Below the pieces are notes generated by a model that worked only from the letters and a program-made list of their open reading frames with translations, made no database searches and was not told the DNA's origin. Positions 6,676 to 51,358 of a stretch of 64,000 bases of DNA are shown piece after piece. Both the position numbers and the translations under genes were made by a program. Location: NCBI RefSeq assembly GCF_041886205.1, contig NZ_CP169029.1, one strand, 5' to 3'. This stretch comes from Escherichia coli. Its GTDB lineage: Bacteria; Pseudomonadota; Gammaproteobacteria; Enterobacterales; Enterobacteriaceae. The first letter of the stretch is position 1. Each line of letters starts with the position of its first letter.

Positions 6676-6841
6676 TGTTTAATCCTTTTGGTTTAAACCA
6701 GATGAAGCATCTTACGCTTACGCCAAAAAAGAAAGCAATTAACGGCGTATGACTTTGCAGATAATTGTGACAAAGCTCTCTATTGACGTAATCCCAGACT
6801 TATAAGGGAGATACTCGCATTGGTGTGCGCTCACGACAGGT

Positions 6842-6874
6842 AAAAAAAAACCTGCCAGCGATGGCAGGTTTTTT
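6842..6874 (-). terminator. rho-independent terminator downstream of typA (hairpin CCTGCCAGCGATGGCAGG flanked by A/T runs)
   Basis: perfect inverted repeat 6851..6868 followed by a U-run on the minus-strand transcript. Confidence 0.6.
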
Positions 6875-6891
6875 ATAACTAAAAAACGAAA

Positions 6892-8715
6892 TTAATCGTC
6901 TTTCGGTGCGCGGTTGGCGCGACGACGATCGTTTTCAGTCAGGTGACGTTTACGAATACGGATAGAGGTCGGAGTCACTTCTACCAGTTCGTCATCATCG
7001 ATGAACTCCAGAGCTTGTTCCAGAGTCATGCGGATAGGCGGAACCAGAACAACGGCTTCGTCAGTACCGGAAGCACGCATGTTGGTCAGTTTCTTACCAG
7101 TCAGGCAGTTTACCGTCAGGTCGTTAGAGCGGCTGTGAATACCGATAATCTGACCTTCGTAAACTTCTGCACCGTGACCGAGGAACAGCTTACCGCGATC
7201 CTGCAGACCGAACAGCGCGAACGCGACCGCTTTACCCTGACCGTTAGAGATCAGTACGCCGTTCTGACGCTGACCCACTTCACCCGGACGTACGTCGTCG
7301 TAGTGGCTGAAGGTGGAGTACAGCAGACCAGTACCGGAAGTCATGGTCATGAACTCAGAACGGAAGCCAATCAGACCACGGCTTGGGATCACGTAGTCGA
7401 GACGTACGCGGCCTTTACCGTCTGGATTCATGTTTTTCAGGTCGCCTTTACGTTCGCCCAGCGCCTGCATTACAGAACCCTGATGCTGTTCTTCAACGTC
7501 CAGAGTCACGTTTTCATACGGCTCTTGTTTACGACCGTCGATTTCACGGAAGATAACTTTCGGACGGGATACCGCCAGTTCGAAACCTTCACGACGCATG
7601 TTTTCGATCAGAACAGACAGGTGTAGTTCGCCACGACCAGAAACGCGGAACGCATCAGCGTCTTCGGTTTCTTCTACGCGCAGCGCAACGTTGTGTACCA
7701 GTTCTTTGTTCAGACGATCCAGGATCTGACGAGACGTTACGAACTTACCTTCTTTACCGCAGAACGGCGAGGTGTTAACGCAGAAGAACATAGAAACGGT
7801 CGGCTCATCAACGGAGAGTGCCGGCAGCGCTTCAACGTTTTGCGTGTCGCAAACGGTGTCAGAAATGTTCAGTTCGCCCAGGCCCGTGATCGCCACGATA
7901 TCGCCAGCTTCCGCCAGATCGGTTTCGATACGTTCCAGACCGAGGTGGCCCAGCACTTTACCGACTTTCGCGTTACGGGTTTTGCCTTCGCTATCGATGA
8001 TAGTGACCTGCTGGTTCGGCTTCACTTTACCGCGCTTGATGCGGCCAATGCCGATAACGCCAACATAGCTGTTGTAATCGAGCTGAGAAATCTGCATCTG
8101 GAACGGACCGTCAAGGTCAACGTCCGGCGCAGGAACGTGATCAACAATCGCCTGATACAGCGGGGTCATGTCTTCCGCCATATCTTCGTGGTCCAGACCC
8201 GCGATACCGTTCAGCGCAGAAGCGTAAACGATCGGGAAGTCCAGCTGCTCGTCGGTCGCGTCGAGGTTAACGAACAGATCGAATACCTGATCCACAACCC
8301 AATCAGGACGCGCGCCAGGGCGGTCAACTTTGTTGATAACAACAATCGGCTTCAGGCCGTAAGCAAACGCTTTTTTGGTTACGAAGCGCGTTTGCGGCAT
8401 CGGGCCGTCAAATGCGTCAACCACCAGCAGCACTGAGTCTACCATGGACATTACACGTTCAACTTCACCACCGAAGTCGGCGTGCCCCGGGGTATCAACG
8501 ATGTTGATACGGTAATCATTCCATTTGATAGCGGTGTTTTTCGCGAGGATGGTAATCCCACGCTCTTTCTCCAAATCGTTGGAGTCCATCACGCGCTCTT
8601 GGGTTTCGGCACGAGAGTCGAACGTACCGGATTGTTGGAGCAGCTTGTCTACCAGGGTGGTTTTACCATGGTCTACGTGCGCGATGATGGCGATATTACG
8701 CAATTTTTCGATCAC
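6892..8715 (-). CDS. typA: ribosome-associated translational GTPase BipA/TypA
   Basis: 607-aa ORF with GTPase motifs ([18 protein letters not shown]); divergent from glnA. Confidence 0.95.
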
Positions 8716-8866
8716 AACTTTGCCTCAGGCATTAGAAATAGCGCGTTATTGTACACGGATTAATCGCACTACAAAACAGGATCACAAACATCCTCCGCAA
8801 ACAAGTATTGCAGAGTCCCTTTGTGATCGCTTTCACGGAGCATAAAAAGGGTTATCCAAAGGTCAT

Positions 8867-8947
8867 TGCACCAATATGGTGCTTAATGTTTCCATTGAAG
8901 CACTATATTGGTGCAACATTCACATCATGGTGCAGCCCTTTTGCACG
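8867..8947 (+). promoter_or_regulatory. NtrC (GlnG) enhancer sites upstream of glnA (TGCACCAatatGGTGCt, GCACtatatTGGTGCA and a third partial site)
   Basis: matches to the TGCACCA-N3-TGGTGCA dyad at about 8867..8883, 8900..8916 and 8929..8947. Confidence 0.75.
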
Positions 8948-13378: not shown

Positions 13379-13480
<102 letters not shown>

Positions 13481-15634: not shown

Positions 15635-15702
15635 AATGGTTCGTCTTTTAGCCGTTTTATTCAGTATAGATTTGCGGCGGAATCTAACAGAAAGCAAGCA
15701 AA

Positions 15703-15945
15703 GAAAAAAGGCGACAGATTACTCTGTCGCCTTTTTTCCTGACTCATAACCCTTAACGGGTCTTACAATCCTTGCAGGCCGCCAACACACCCTGTTTTTC
15801 CTTTAGCCGGAACAATCCGTGTTGATTCCATTTCCGTTTAATTACGTCTCCGGACGTTTGTCTTCCTGACAATCCTCTGTCTTCGCCTCCTGGCGCTCCT
15901 GACCCTCATCCTGAGTCATTGTTCCTGTTAGCGTCCTCGCTCTAT
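15703..15945 (-). ncRNA. csrC: CsrC small RNA (CsrA-sequestering)
   Basis: reverse complement matches CsrC from ATAGAGCGAGGACGC.. to the terminator GGCGACAGAGTAATCTGTCGCCTTTTTT; multiple GGA motifs; between yihI and engB. Confidence 0.85.
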
Positions 15946-16973: not shown

Positions 16974-17082
16974 TAAAAAACGCCCCAGTCATTACTGACT
17001 GGGGCGGCTAAAATATTCAGCCAAATCCGATTACGTGAAGTAAAAGGTCTGAAAGATAGAACATCTTACCTCTGTACCCTAC
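16974..17082 (-). ncRNA. spf: Spot 42 small RNA
   Basis: reverse complement matches Spot 42 (GTAGGGTACAGAGGTAAGATGTTC...) through the terminator CCGCCCCAGTCAGTAATGACTGGGGCGTTTTTTA. Confidence 0.9.
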
Positions 17083-17229
17083 GCGACTAACTTTACTCTT
17101 TTTTGTTCAGTTCAGAAAGCACTTTTTGTAATTTTTTTTCAGTTGTTGCATAGGAATTTCTAATAGCCATCACAAAACGTGACAGCTTATGTTGCTTACT
17201 TACGAAAAAAGGGCATGTTCAGGCGAATC

Positions 17230-26177: not shown

Positions 26178-26297
26178 ATGCCTGGCAGTTCCCTACTCTC
26201 GCATGGGGAGACCCCACACTACCATCGGCGCTACGGCGTTTCACTTCTGAGTTCGGCATGGGGTCAGGTGGGACCACCGCGCTACGGCCGCCAGGCA
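26178..26297 (-). rRNA. rrfA: 5S ribosomal RNA
   Basis: 120-nt match to E. coli 5S rRNA (reverse complement ATGCCTGGCAGTTCCCTACTCTCGCATGGGG...). Confidence 0.97.
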
Positions 26298-26389
26298 AAT
26301 TCTTTTTTATCAGACCGCTTCTGCGTTCTGATTTAATCTGTATCAGGCTGAAAATCTTCTCTCATCCGCCAAAACACCTTCGGCGTTGT

Positions 26390-29292
<2,903 letters not shown>

Positions 29293-29475
29293 TCACAACC
29301 CGAAGATGTTTCTTTCGATTCATCATCGTGTTGCGAAAATTTGAGAGACTCACGAACAACTTTCGTTGTTCAGTGTTTCAATTTTCAGCTTGATCCAGAT
29401 TTTTAAAGAGCAAAACTTCGCAGTGAACCTTTGCAGGTACACTCTGAAGTATTTTTTATTTAATCACTACAGAGA

Positions 29476-29551
29476 TGGTGGAGCTATGCGGGATCGAACC
29501 GCAGACCTCCTGCGTGCAAAGCAGGCGCTCTCCCAGCTGAGCTATAGCCCC
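29476..29551 (-). tRNA. alaT: tRNA-Ala (UGC)
   Basis: 76-nt match to GGGGCTATAGCTCAGCTGGGAGAGCGCCTGCTTTGCACGCAGGAGGTCTGCGGTTCGATCCCGCATAGCTCCACCA. Confidence 0.97.
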
Positions 29552-29593
29552 ATAACATGTAGTTAAAACCTCTTCAAATTTGCGGTGCAAATT

Positions 29594-29670
<77 letters not shown>

Positions 29671-29738
29671 GTAGAGGTTTTACTGCTCATTTTCATCAGA
29701 CAATCTGTGTGAGCACTGCAAAGTACGCTTCTTTAAGG

Positions 29739-31280
<1,542 letters not shown>

Positions 31281-39208: not shown

Positions 39209-39392
<184 letters not shown>

Positions 39393-44845: not shown

Positions 44846-47088
<2,243 letters not shown>

Positions 47089-49519: not shown

Positions 49520-50281
49520 TTACAGCAGACGACGCGCCGCTTCCACCACGATTTTCACCGCATGGCTTTCGGTTTGTTTCATCGTCTCAGCATTCGGGAT
49601 CTCTTGCTGGGTGCGGTTAACGATAACACCCGCTACCATACCGGCACGCAGGCCCTGACTTGCACACATGGTCAGCAGGGTTGCAGATTCCATTTCATAG
49701 TTCATTACGCCCATCGCCTGCCACTCTTCCATAGAACCTTTAAAGTGACGAACTACGCGACCAGAGTAAGTATCGTAACGTTCCTGGCCTGGGTAGAAGG
49801 TATCAGAAGAAGCCGTCACGCCAACGTGAGTCGTCGCGCCAATGGATTTCGCCGCTTCAACCAGCGCAGTCGTACATTCGAAATCAGCGACAGCCGGGAA
49901 TTCCAGCGGTGCGAAGTGCAGGCTCGCGCCATCCAGACGGACAGACGCCGTGGTAACCAGGACATCACCCACATTAATATGCGGCTGAATAGCGCCCGTT
50001 GTACCGATACGCAGGAAGGTGCGAATGCCCAGCTGTGCCAGCTCTTCAACAGCAATAGAGGTAGACGGGCCACCGATACCGGTAGAGCAGACGATAACAG
50101 GTTTACCATCCAGCTCTGCACGCCAGGTGGTGAATTCGCGGTGAGATGCCAGCTTAACCGGCTTATCCATCAGCGCGGCGATCTTTTCCACACGATCCGG
50201 GTCGCCAGGGACGATGGCAAGCGTAGCCCCTTGTAAATCGTTTTTAGTGAGGCCGAGATGAAAAACATCAGACTTGGACAT
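49520..50281 (-). CDS. udp: uridine phosphorylase
   Basis: 253-aa product from [16 protein letters not shown]. Confidence 0.95.
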
Positions 50282-50542
50282 ATACAACTCCTCTGTGAAT
50301 CGGTTTAGTCAGAAGAAGCAAAAAGACACTTTACCGAAGGGTTTAACATTTTTTCGTGATACTCATCACCATGACGCAAATGCGTTGCATAAATTTACCC
50401 ACCAAAAGTGATTCAAATCACATAAATCACTCTTCATTCTGCAGGACTGCATAAAAGATGAGCCGATTCAGGCAATGTGATTTGTTGCATGCTGACTATA
50501 GTTAACATTGCGCAACATTTTTATAAGGGTACGGAGAATACC

Positions 50543-51358
50543 ATGGCAACAACACAACAATCTGGATTTGCACCTGCTGCATCGCCTCTCGCTTCGACCA
50601 TCGTTCAGACCCCGGACGACGCGATTGTGGCGGGCTTCACCTCTATCCCTTCACAAGGGGATAACATGCCTGCTTACCATGCCAGACCAAAGCAAAGCGA
50701 TGCCCCACTGCCAGTGGTCATTGTAGTGCAGGAAATTTTTGGCGTGCATGAACATATCCGCGACATTTGTCGCCGTCTGGCGCTGGAGGGGTATCTGGCT
50801 ATCGCACCTGAACTTTACTTCCGCGAAGGCGATCCGAATGATTTTGCCGATATCCCCACGTTGCTTAGCGGTCTGGTAGCAAAAGTGCCTGACTCGCAGG
50901 TGCTGGCCGATCTCGATCATGTCGCCAGTTGGGCTTCCCGCAACGGCGGCGATGTTCATCGTTTAATGATCACCGGATTCTGCTGGGGTGGACGTATCAC
51001 CTGGCTGTATGCCGCGCATAATCCACAGCTAAAAGCTGCAGTGGCGTGGTACGGCAAACTGACGGGCGACAAGTCGCTGAATTCACCGAAACAACCTGTT
51101 GATATCGCAACCGATCTTAACGCGCCGGTTCTCGGCTTATATGGCGGTCTGGATAACAGTATTCCGCAGGAGAGCGTTGAAACCATGCGCCAGGCGCTGC
51201 GGGCTGCTAATGCGAAAGCAGAGATTATCGTGTACCCGGATGCCGGGCATGCATTCAACGCTGATTATCGCCCGAGCTATCATGCCGAATCTGCGAAAGA
51301 TGGCTGGCAGCGAATGTTGGAATGGTTTAAGCGGTATGGTGGGAAGAAGTCGCTGTAA
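50543..51358 (+). CDS. dlhH: dienelactone hydrolase-family carboxymethylenebutenolidase
   Basis: 271-aa product from [11 protein letters not shown] (ATG 50543); track ORF starts 22 codons upstream. Confidence 0.85.

What the first reader, a model, noticed from the sequence alone, without database searches (positions are those of the whole stretch)
50282..50542. udp-dlhH divergent region with two CRP-like palindromes
Two TGTGA-N6-TCACA-like motifs (GTGATTCAAATCACAT near 50408..50423 and TGTGATTTGTTGCAT near 50475..50490) lie upstream of udp (minus strand), a known CRP/CytR-regulated gene, and directly ahead of the dlhH start on the other strand. The spacing and which gene each site serves are unclear from sequence alone.
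Basis: partly seen in the sequence, partly recalled or inferred. Interest (0 to 1): 0.25.

Follow-up and report, generated by a model that had tools for sequence, protein, structure and literature searches.

The report
Known udp CRP/CytR promoter, one site misplaced

Summary
The window is E. coli: rmuC, udp (minus strand, 49520-50281), ysgA/dlhH (plus strand, 50543-51358) and metE.

It has one core mismatch and is the best PWM hit in the 64 kb.

- It has three core mismatches and ranks 70th by PWM.
- 29% of shuffled copies of the region contain an equal or better site.
- Its right half is not conserved, and a published CRP ChIP-seq peak does not list it.

The two real sites are 52 bp apart. 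From a conserved -10 hexamer I infer that they lie at -41.5 and -93.5. They flank an exact copy of the published udp CytR operator (50367-50398). The pair is present at the same spacing in all 79 Enterobacterales sequences compared.

Motif 2 lies about -26.5 from the inferred ysgA start, so it most likely belongs to the ysgA core promoter.

This is already known biology and of low interest. One side observation: a published antisense start inside ysgA sends RNA across the whole region.

The parts
49520..50281 (-). udp (uridine phosphorylase) coding sequence; ATG at 50281
   Evidence: The ORF list gives the protein [11 protein letters not shown]... RefSeq annotation of identical DNA names it udp.
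50288..50294 (-). udp Shine-Dalgarno sequence (AGAGGAG on the minus strand)
   Evidence: Alignment columns C10 T11 C12 C13 T14 are invariant in 79 Enterobacterales sequences. Sequence confirmed.
50321..50321 (-). Inferred udp transcription start (plus or minus 2 nt), equal to NC_000913.3 position 4016391
   Evidence: This is inferred, not measured here. It lies 7 nt downstream of the conserved -10 hexamer and places the two CRP sites at -41.5 and -93.5.
50328..50333 (-). udp -10 hexamer TAAAGT
   Evidence: The first, second, fourth and last bases of the hexamer (T, A, A, T; window 50333, 50332, 50330, 50328) are invariant in all 79 sequences, and the fifth base is nearly invariant.
50355..50370 (.). 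CRP1, the promoter-proximal CRP site CGTGATACTCATCACC, centred at 50362.5 (inferred -41.5).
   Evidence: It has 2 core mismatches and scores 13.1 bits, PWM rank 3 of the window. Its reverse complement GGTGATGAGTATCACG is listed under the ysgA/udp ChIP-seq peak. The GTGA and TCAC columns are invariant or nearly so (one at 90% or more) in 79 sequences.
50367..50398 (-). Published udp CytR operator oligonucleotide (CytO). The two octamer half-sites with their 3-bp spacer lie at 50373-50391 (GACGCAAA-TGC-GTTGCATA).
   Evidence: The 32-mer GTAAATTTATGCAACGCATTTGCGTCATGGTG from bioRxiv 10.1101/2021.02.28.433298 matches exactly. The ATTGCAT half is conserved in Enterobacteriaceae.
50407..50422 (.). 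CRP2, the distal CRP site AGTGATTCAAATCACA, centred at 50414.5 (inferred -93.5).
   Evidence: It has 1 core mismatch and scores 16.0 bits, PWM rank 1. Its reverse complement TGTGATTTGAATCACT is listed under the ChIP-seq peak. It is paired with CRP1 at 52 bp (53 bp in six Yersinia) in all 79 sequences. MG1655 differs only at 50413, in the spacer.
50476..50491 (.). It is a CRP half-site only and probably belongs to the -35 region of the ysgA promoter. It also contains GTTGCAT, a CytR-type heptamer.
   Evidence: It scores 5.6 bits and ranks 70th, which is chance level. At the homologous position in Escherichia, Citrobacter and Salmonella the score is 0.4-7.7, and no site is found there in most other genera. 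Conservation of the right half is 30-60%. GTTGCAT occurs 10 times in the window against 13 expected.
50496..50505 (+). ysgA/dlhH -10 region CTATAGTTAA (hexamer TATAGT at 50497-50502, with C at -13)
   Evidence: Conservation is 80-99% across Enterobacteriaceae. The motif is found at a similar distance from CRP2 in many genera.
50510..50510 (+). Inferred ysgA transcription start, 33 nt upstream of the ATG
   Evidence: It is homologous to the -31 start of the Salmonella dlhH::gfp fusion (PMC5137417 Table 1; S. arizonae sequence). The edge of a published dsRNA locus maps to window 50517.
50543..51358 (+). ysgA (dlhH), dienelactone hydrolase family protein
   Evidence: ORF list and RefSeq annotation.
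50712..50725 (-). Upstream promoter inside ysgA that reads in the udp direction: -10 hexamer TACAAT at 50725..50720, with published antisense starts at 50713 and 50712
   Evidence: The Thomason antisense start 4014022(+) and the Conway promoter 4014023 (U00096.2 coordinates) are quoted in PMC7373196 Table S1. The coordinate map was verified. The hexamer is not conserved outside Escherichia.

Best explanation
The region is the classical udp promoter (udpP), a CRP-CytR-CRP regulatory module.

In the published model, cAMP-CRP bound at the imperfect proximal site CRP1 (50355-50370) activates RNA polymerase. I infer that this site is centred at -41.5, the class II position. A second, stronger CRP dimer binds CRP2 (50407-50422) exactly 52 bp upstream, at an inferred -93.5.

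The CytR repressor recognises its weak operator between the two sites (50373-50391). It is held there by protein-protein contacts with both CRP dimers, which masks CRP1 and switches udp off. Cytidine releases CytR, and CRP-dependent activation resumes.

Both real CRP sites therefore serve udp.

Its conserved TGTG(A/G) left half lies at about -34 to -30 of the divergent ysgA promoter (-10 region CTATAGTTAA, start near 50510). It is most simply read as part of that promoter's -35 region.

Shown here: the sites, their scores and statistics, the spacing, conservation, identity with the published operator, and identity with the ChIP-seq motifs.

Taken from the literature: CRP occupancy in vivo, CytR repression and cytidine induction.

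Inferred: the exact udp and ysgA start points, and the role of motif 2 as a -35 region.
For: 1. Locus identity. 5,425 of 5,426 complete E. coli genomes hold this DNA, annotated udp and ysgA.

2. Site strength. The two sites rank 1 and 3 of the 64-kb window on a PWM built from 105 independent ChIP-seq sites. Only 3 sites in 64 kb reach 13 bits, and 2 of them lie in this 261-bp gap. No shuffle out of 20,000 gave such a pair.

3. In vivo binding. The ETEC H10407 CRP ChIP-seq peak for ysgA/udp lists exactly these two 16-mers (PMC4287617).

4. CytR operator. The published natural udp CytR operator 32-mer matches 50367-50398 exactly.

5. Geometry. The centre-to-centre distance is 52 bp. This equals the 30-31 bp gap between 22-bp CRP operators reported as conserved for udp (PMC3454398).

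6. Conservation. In 79 Enterobacterales sequences the pair is always found, at 52 bp (53 bp in six Yersinia). The GTGA/TCAC cores, four bases of the -10 hexamer TAnAGT and the Shine-Dalgarno sequence are invariant, with a few core columns at 90% or more.

7. Relative strength. The distal site is the stronger one, as reported for most CytR-regulated promoters.

8. Mechanism in the literature. The mechanism is described in PMC3454398 and PMC4581735.

9. Motif 2. Its score is at chance level, its right half is not conserved, and it lies at -26.5 of the inferred ysgA start (start evidence).
Against: - The udp start point was not measured here, and I could not open the primary paper (Brikun et al. 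1996). The -41.5 and -93.5 positions rest on the conserved -10 hexamer and on my recollection of the literature.
- The simple promoter scanner found no sigma-70 consensus promoter in the region. That is expected for an activator-dependent promoter, but it gives no positive support.
- A ChIP-seq peak cannot exclude weak CRP occupancy at motif 2, about 70-120 bp away from the two strong sites.
- The best -35 candidate overlapping motif 2 (ATGTGA, 16-bp spacer) matches TTGACA at only 3 of 6 positions.
Confidence: 0.93

Rival explanations
1. The reader's motif 2 (50476-50491) is a genuine but weak third CRP site. Because it overlaps the -35/spacer region of the ysgA promoter (centre about -26.5), CRP bound there would repress ysgA. 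Alternatively it could extend the udp nucleoprotein complex upstream.
For: - The left half TGTGA is perfect, and 'GGCAnTGTG' is conserved in Escherichia, Citrobacter, Salmonella, Enterobacter, Leclercia and Kluyvera.
- In S. arizonae the homologous 16-mer is TGTGGTTTGTTACACA, with 2 core mismatches and 6.4 bits.
- A similar sequence, TGTGATCTACAGCATG, is listed as a secondary site at the yibI/mtlA ChIP peak.
Against: - It scores 5.6 bits, below 93% of ChIP-defined sites, and ranks 70th.
- 29% of shuffled regions contain an equal or better site.
- Scores at the homologous position are 0.4-7.7 within the closest genera, and no site is found there in most others.
- The right half is only 30-60% conserved.
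- MEME did not report it at the ChIP peak.
- Its position is -162.5 from the inferred udp start and -26.5 from the inferred ysgA start. Neither is an activating position.
Confidence: 0.07
2. CRP2 is shared between the two divergent promoters. Besides its role at udp, it would activate ysgA as a distal class I site.
For: - CRP2 lies 81.5 bp upstream of the ysgA -13C, which is about -95.5 from the inferred start.
- That 81-82 bp distance recurs in many genera even where the DNA in between is not alignable.
- CRP sites in the ChIP-seq study cluster near -40.5 and -92.5.
- PhyloScan lists ysgA among predicted CRP targets.
Against: - A position of -95.5 is two bases off the usual -93.5 face.
- The distance is 73, 75, 80, 84, 88, 91 or 95 bp in other genera, so helical phase is not kept.
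- The PhyloScan and ChIP listings merely reflect the shared intergenic region.
- Sources that I could read place ysgA in the RpoS regulon and under FNR, not under CRP.
- The -10 region CTATAGTTAA resembles the sigma-S type. That resemblance is my own knowledge of the consensus, not a test done here.
Confidence: 0.1
3. Motif 2 is a composite outpost of the CytR system. A CRP half-site (TGTGA) abuts a CytR-type heptamer (GTTGCAT, 50484-50490) that lies exactly 100 bp from the identical heptamer in the CytR operator. A CRP-CytR complex could then also close the ysgA promoter.
For: GTTGCAT occurs twice in the 261-bp region, at 50384 and 50484. One of these is the best half of the known operator. 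About 0.04 extra copies are expected by chance in 261 bp (computed).
Against: - The heptamer is not enriched in the window: 10 found against 13 expected.
- It changes to GTTGCAC, GTTACAC or GTTAACC in close relatives.
- CytR needs a properly placed, full CRP site within a few bases (PMC3454398), and none is present here.
Confidence: 0.03

Closest known systems
E. coli udpP, the CRP1-CytO-CRP2 module of the CytR regulon (Brikun et al. 1996; Gavigan et al. 1999; reviewed in Sernova & Gelfand 2012, PMC3454398)
   Same: It is the same locus. The sequence is identical to the published CytR operator and to the ChIP-seq CRP motifs, with the same 52-bp spacing. Across window 50182-50800 it differs from K-12 MG1655 at three bases, two of them in the intergenic region and none in a core motif.
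   Different: Nothing of substance. The window strain carries T instead of G at 50413, in the non-contacted spacer of CRP2, as does ETEC H10407.
deoP2 promoter of the deoCABD operon (CRP sites at -41.5 and -93.5 flanking a CytR operator)
   Same: It has the same architecture and the same 52-bp centre-to-centre spacing of tandem CRP sites with CytR in between. The deoP2 positions come from my own knowledge. The general scheme is in PMC3454398.
   Different: The spacing of the CytR half-sites differs: 0 bp at deoP2 against 3 bp at udp (bioRxiv 10.1101/2021.02.28.433298). The gene and sequence are also different.
Divergent 5'-overlapping transcript pairs ('excludon'-like loci) catalogued in E. 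coli (Conway 2014; Lybecker 2014; Huang 2020, PMC7373196)
   Same: The ysgA/udp pair is itself listed there as a 5' overlap locus with abundant RNase III-derived dsRNA.
   Different: This concerns the upstream antisense start at 50713 inside ysgA, not the CRP motifs. No regulatory role has been shown for it.

Membership tests
CRP-CytR-CRP regulatory module (CytR regulon promoter) | Two CRP sites about 52-53 bp apart centre to centre | tested here: met
   The centres are at 50362.5 and 50414.5, 52 bp apart. The same spacing holds in all 79 Enterobacterales sequences (53 bp in six Yersinia). It matches the 30-31 bp inter-operator gap in PMC3454398.
CRP-CytR-CRP regulatory module (CytR regulon promoter) | CytR operator (repeat of a TGCAA/GTTGCATT-type motif) between the CRP sites and within a few bases of one of them | tested here: met
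   The published udp CytO 32-mer matches 50367-50398 exactly. The half-sites at 50373-50391 begin 3 bp from CRP1.
CRP-CytR-CRP regulatory module (CytR regulon promoter) | Proximal CRP site at the class II position (-41.5) of the regulated promoter | tested here: inconclusive
   The geometry fits: a -10 hexamer with four invariant bases at 50333-50328 gives a start near 50321 and puts CRP1 at -41.5. No 5' end data for udp could be retrieved.
CRP-CytR-CRP regulatory module (CytR regulon promoter) | CRP occupancy in vivo | tested here: met
   This comes from the literature, not from a new experiment. A CRP ChIP-seq peak at ysgA/udp in ETEC H10407 carries exactly these two motifs (PMC4287617).
CRP-CytR-CRP regulatory module (CytR regulon promoter) | CytR-dependent repression relieved by cytidine | not testable with these tools
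   Reported for udp in PMC3454398 and PMC4581735, which cite Brikun 1996. It cannot be tested from sequence.
   It has 3 core mismatches, all in the right half. It scores 5.6 bits, below 93% of 105 ChIP-defined sites.
   It ranks 70th in the window. About 0.26 such sites are expected per 246 positions, and 29% of 20,000 shuffles of the region contain one.
   The left half is moderately conserved, and the right half is 30-60% conserved. Homologous scores are 0.4-7.7, in three genera only.
   It lies at about -26.5 from the inferred ysgA start and -162.5 from the inferred udp start.
Class I CRP-dependent promoter (applied to ysgA with CRP2) | CRP site on the correct helical face upstream of the start, with the phase conserved | tested here: inconclusive
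   CRP2 lies at about -95.5. The distance to the -10 is 81-82 bp in many genera but 73-95 bp in others. No expression data were available.

The most novel reading that the evidence does not exclude
The region may be more than a one-gene switch. A promoter inside ysgA reads in the udp direction (-10 hexamer TACAAT at 50725-50720; published starts at 50713 and 50712). It sends RNA across the ysgA promoter and through the CRP-CytR-CRP module, and it yields one of the most abundant dsRNA clusters in stationary-phase cells.

If the CRP-CytR complex acts as a roadblock to this transcript, or if the transcript interferes with ysgA, then nucleoside and cAMP signals would control udp and ysgA reciprocally in an excludon-like manner. 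The half-CRP/half-CytR motif at 50476-50491 could contribute to such control.
Probability: 0.06. Interest if true: 0.4.

Novelty: already known. Interest (0 to 1): 0.08.

Why it matters
It matters little beyond correct annotation. The udp promoter is a textbook case of combinatorial control, in which an activator (CRP) is converted into a co-repressor by CytR. Its sites have been mapped by genetics, footprinting, NMR and ChIP-seq.

The useful outcome here is a correction. Both sites serve udp. The weak motif near ysgA should not be annotated as a CRP site.

The check also shows that scanning by eye for TGTGA picks up half-sites at chance frequency and can miss imperfect but real sites such as CGTGA-N6-TCACC.

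Tried and rejected
- The simple sigma-70/terminator scan of 50200-50620 found nothing. That is uninformative for activator-dependent promoters.
- The Rfam scan of the whole window found no RNA family in the intergenic region.
- I tried to open the primary papers (Brikun 1996, PMC177846; Pedersen & Valentin-Hansen 1997, PMC1169813; Thomason 2015, PMC4288677). None is held.
- The Kim 2012 TSS supplement is truncated before this locus. The Conway 2014 supplements are not held. The cap on papers stopped a look at Cappable-seq data. As a result, no direct 5' end data for the main udp or ysgA promoters were obtained.
- I considered motif 2 as an FNR site, because ysgA appears under FNR in a RegulonDB-derived list. 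By eye, GTGAT-N4-TGCAT matches TTGAT-N4-ATCAA poorly in the right half, so I did not pursue it. CRP2 resembles an FNR site (8 of 10) but carries the G/C positions typical of CRP.
- I considered the second GTTGCAT heptamer as an extra CytR half-site. I rejected it because it is at chance level and not conserved.
- At first I mis-indexed one sequence line and thought the published antisense start fell inside its own -10 hexamer. One search corrected this.
- I decided against a within-E. coli polymorphism analysis of the three sites. At 99% or higher identity in most genomes, it would carry little information.

Full report
**Identity of the locus.** The window around the finding holds rmuC (minus strand), udp (minus, 49520-50281), a dienelactone-hydrolase gene (plus, 50543-51358) and metE (minus). 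The 461 bases spanning the gap are present in 5,425 of 5,426 complete E. coli genomes, at 95% identity or more in every one (99% or more in 4,450), and are annotated udp and ysgA (annotation). Across 50182-50800 the window differs from K-12 MG1655 at three bases. One of them, 50413, lies in the spacer of a CRP site.

**Checking the two motifs.** A scan for TGTGA-N6-TCACA allowing up to two mismatches finds two sites in the gap: CGTGATACTCATCACC at 50355-50370 and AGTGATTCAAATCACA at 50407-50422.

To score the sites without relying on memory, I built a symmetric position weight matrix. It uses the 105 CRP sites in Table 1 of a CRP ChIP-seq study in ETEC H10407 (PMC4287617), with the two udp sites left out.

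| Site | Coordinates | Score (bits) | Rank in window |
|---|---|---|---|
| CRP1 (missed by reader) | 50355-50370 | 13.1 | 3 |

Motif 2 scores below 93% of the training sites. Only three sites in 64 kb reach 13 bits, and two of them are in this 261-bp gap. In 20,000 shuffles of the gap, a best site of 16 bits or more arose in 0.015%, and a second site of 13.1 bits or more never arose. A site of 5.6 bits or more arose in 29%. Motif 1 is therefore real and strong. Motif 2 cannot be told apart from chance.

**Agreement with published data.**
- The ChIP-seq table lists, under the ysgA/udp peak, GGTGATGAGTATCACG and TGTGATTTGAATCACT. These are the reverse complements of 50355-50370 and 50407-50422.
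- The natural udp CytR operator used in NMR work, GTAAATTTATGCAACGCATTTGCGTCATGGTG (bioRxiv 10.1101/2021.02.28.433298), matches 50367-50398 on the minus strand exactly. Its two octamers are separated by 3 bp and lie at 50373-50391, between the two CRP sites.
- A comparative study of the CytR regulon reports that the gap between the 22-bp CRP operators of udp is conserved at 30-31 bp. That equals the 52-bp centre-to-centre distance found here.
- The same study reports that udp uses one CRP site for activation and two for repression, and that the distal site is usually the stronger one (PMC3454398).

**Conservation.** I fetched udp loci from 80 genomes and aligned the upstream regions of 78 species with the window.
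- In all 79 sequences, the best pair of PWM hits lies at the same place relative to the udp ATG, 52 bp apart (53 bp in six Yersinia).
- The proximal site is always imperfect (nearly always CGTGA...TCAC(C/T), 9.7-14.3 bits). The distal site is usually near-consensus (mostly 14-20 bits).
- The invariant columns are the GTGA and TCAC cores of both sites, the udp Shine-Dalgarno sequence, and four bases of a hexamer, TAAAGT on the udp strand (50333-50328), whose first, second, fourth and last positions never change. A few core columns are at 90% or more rather than strictly invariant.

Taking that hexamer as the -10 element puts the udp start near 50321, CRP1 at -41.5 and CRP2 at -93.5. These positions match the -40.5 and -92.5 clusters reported in the ChIP-seq study. 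The start point itself is an inference, because I could not retrieve primary 5' end data.

The divergent gene has a strongly conserved CTATAGTTAA at 50496-50505. In Salmonella, a dlhH::gfp fusion begins at -31 from the AUG (PMC5137417). In this plasmid system that position is normally the mapped start; this is my own knowledge. In the S. arizonae sequence it is the G eight bases after TATAGT. The homologous base in the window is 50510. The edge of a published dsRNA locus maps to 50517, which is consistent with an mRNA 5' end there.

Motif 2 is then centred at about -26.5 of the ysgA promoter and -162.5 of the udp promoter. Neither is a position from which CRP activates. Its left half, within 'GGCAnTGTG', is moderately conserved across several genera, while its right half is only 30-60% conserved. 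PWM scores at the homologous position are 0.4-7.7 in Escherichia, Citrobacter and Salmonella, and no site is found there in most other genera.

The simplest reading is that the conserved TGTG(A/G) belongs to the -35 region of the ysgA promoter: ATGTGA matches TTGACA at 3 of 6 positions with a 16-bp spacer. The motif also contains GTTGCAT, the same heptamer as the better CytR half-site 100 bp away. That heptamer occurs 10 times in the window against 13 expected, and it changes in close relatives, so I treat it as coincidence.

**Which gene each site serves.** Both real sites serve udp. CRP2 could in principle also act on ysgA from about -95.5. The 81-82 bp distance from CRP2 to the ysgA -10 does recur in many genera. 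However, it is 73, 75, 80, 84, 88, 91 or 95 bp in others, so helical phase is not preserved. Sources that I could read list ysgA in the RpoS regulon and under FNR, not under CRP. Its mRNA is a target of the small RNAs SdsR and GcvB. I give shared use of CRP2 about 10%.

A study of RNase III-derived dsRNA (PMC7373196; reference genome U00096.2, where udp is at 4014454-4015215) lists a cluster at 4014014-4014166. It ranks sixth among the protein-coding-gene clusters listed for stationary phase, and it is classed as a 5' overlap of ysgA and udp. The same table quotes:
- a Thomason antisense start at 4014022(+);
- a Conway transcript running from a promoter at 4014023 to a terminator at 4015230, just past udp.

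With the coordinate map verified, the cluster is window 50569-50721 and the start is 50713/50712 on the minus strand. That is 7-8 nt downstream of TACAAT (50725-50720). So a udp-direction RNA begins 431 nt upstream of the udp ATG, inside ysgA, and crosses the ysgA promoter and the CRP/CytR module.

The hexamer lies on Ile-Val codons (ATT GTA). Its first T, a third-codon position, is kept only in E. coli, E. albertii and a few other genera. The promoter therefore looks lineage-specific and may be incidental. Whether it has any function is unknown.

**Comparison with known systems, and verdict.** This is not merely similar to the udp CRP-CytR-CRP module; it is that module, with sequence identity to the published operator and ChIP motifs. 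It shares its architecture with deoP2, which from my own knowledge also has tandem CRP sites 52 bp apart flanking a CytR operator. The CytR half-site spacing differs: 3 bp at udp against 0 bp at deoP2.

The finding is already known. Interest is low. The only reading with some novelty is an interplay between the upstream antisense transcript, the ysgA promoter and the CRP-CytR complex. I rate that at about 6%.

Noticed in passing
window 50712-50725 (minus strand), with dsRNA over 50569-50721: Published antisense starts (U00096.2 4014022 and 4014023) map 7-8 nt downstream of a TACAAT hexamer inside ysgA. The resulting udp-direction RNA crosses the whole intergenic region. It forms one of the most abundant stationary-phase dsRNA clusters with the ysgA mRNA (PMC7373196). 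The hexamer is not conserved outside Escherichia.
   Followed up: partly
window 50496-50505 and 50510: The ysgA/dlhH -10 region CTATAGTTAA, with C at -13, is highly conserved across Enterobacteriaceae and resembles the sigma-S type of -10 element (my knowledge of the consensus). ysgA is listed in the RpoS regulon in one paper (PMC5098033) and under FNR in another (PMC2710865). It is a target of the SdsR and GcvB small RNAs.
   Followed up: partly
window 50446-50480: A moderately conserved block (TGCAyAAAAGATAG...GGCAnTGTG) lies between CRP2 and the ysgA -10, at about -64 to -30 of the inferred ysgA start, in Escherichia, Citrobacter, Salmonella, Enterobacter and Leclercia. No factor is assigned. 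It could be an upstream element or a regulator site for ysgA.
   Followed up: no
window 50306-50326: The first part of the inferred udp 5' UTR (GTCAGAAGAAGCAAAAAG on the plus strand; pyrimidine-rich CUUCUUCUGAC in the mRNA) is as conserved as the CRP cores. In Salmonella, a MarA ChIP-seq peak in dlhH<>udp was assigned the motif GCTTCTTCTGACAAA, which corresponds to this stretch (PMC10268841).
   Followed up: no
window 8822-8837: TGTGATCGCTTTCACG is the second-best CRP PWM hit in the window (14.1 bits, 1 core mismatch). It lies in the glnA-typA intergenic region and inside the Rfam match to ES222 sRNA (8797-8904, minus strand). From memory, this is the known CRP site upstream of glnAp1.
   Followed up: partly
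window 50626-50641: A CRP-like 16-mer, TGTGGCGGGCTTCACC (2 core mismatches, 7.1 bits), lies inside the ysgA coding sequence, within the dsRNA-forming region. It is probably chance.
   Followed up: no
window 6839-46734: Rfam matches elsewhere in the window: an rRNA operon with two tRNAs (26180-31280, minus), CsrC (15692-15945), Spot 42 (16974-17092), two naRNA4 repeats (13400-13477 and 39261-39338), Erse (46483-46734) and STnc370 (6839-6907).
   Followed up: no
L059 and L061 (Yersinia artesiana, Y. aldovae), upstream of udp: In these two Yersinia species an insertion of about 130-200 bp lies between the udp Shine-Dalgarno region and the CRP1 site. CRP1 therefore sits 209 and 281 bp from the ATG, instead of about 80-87 bp. 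The CRP1-CRP2 spacing is still kept at 53 bp.
   Followed up: no
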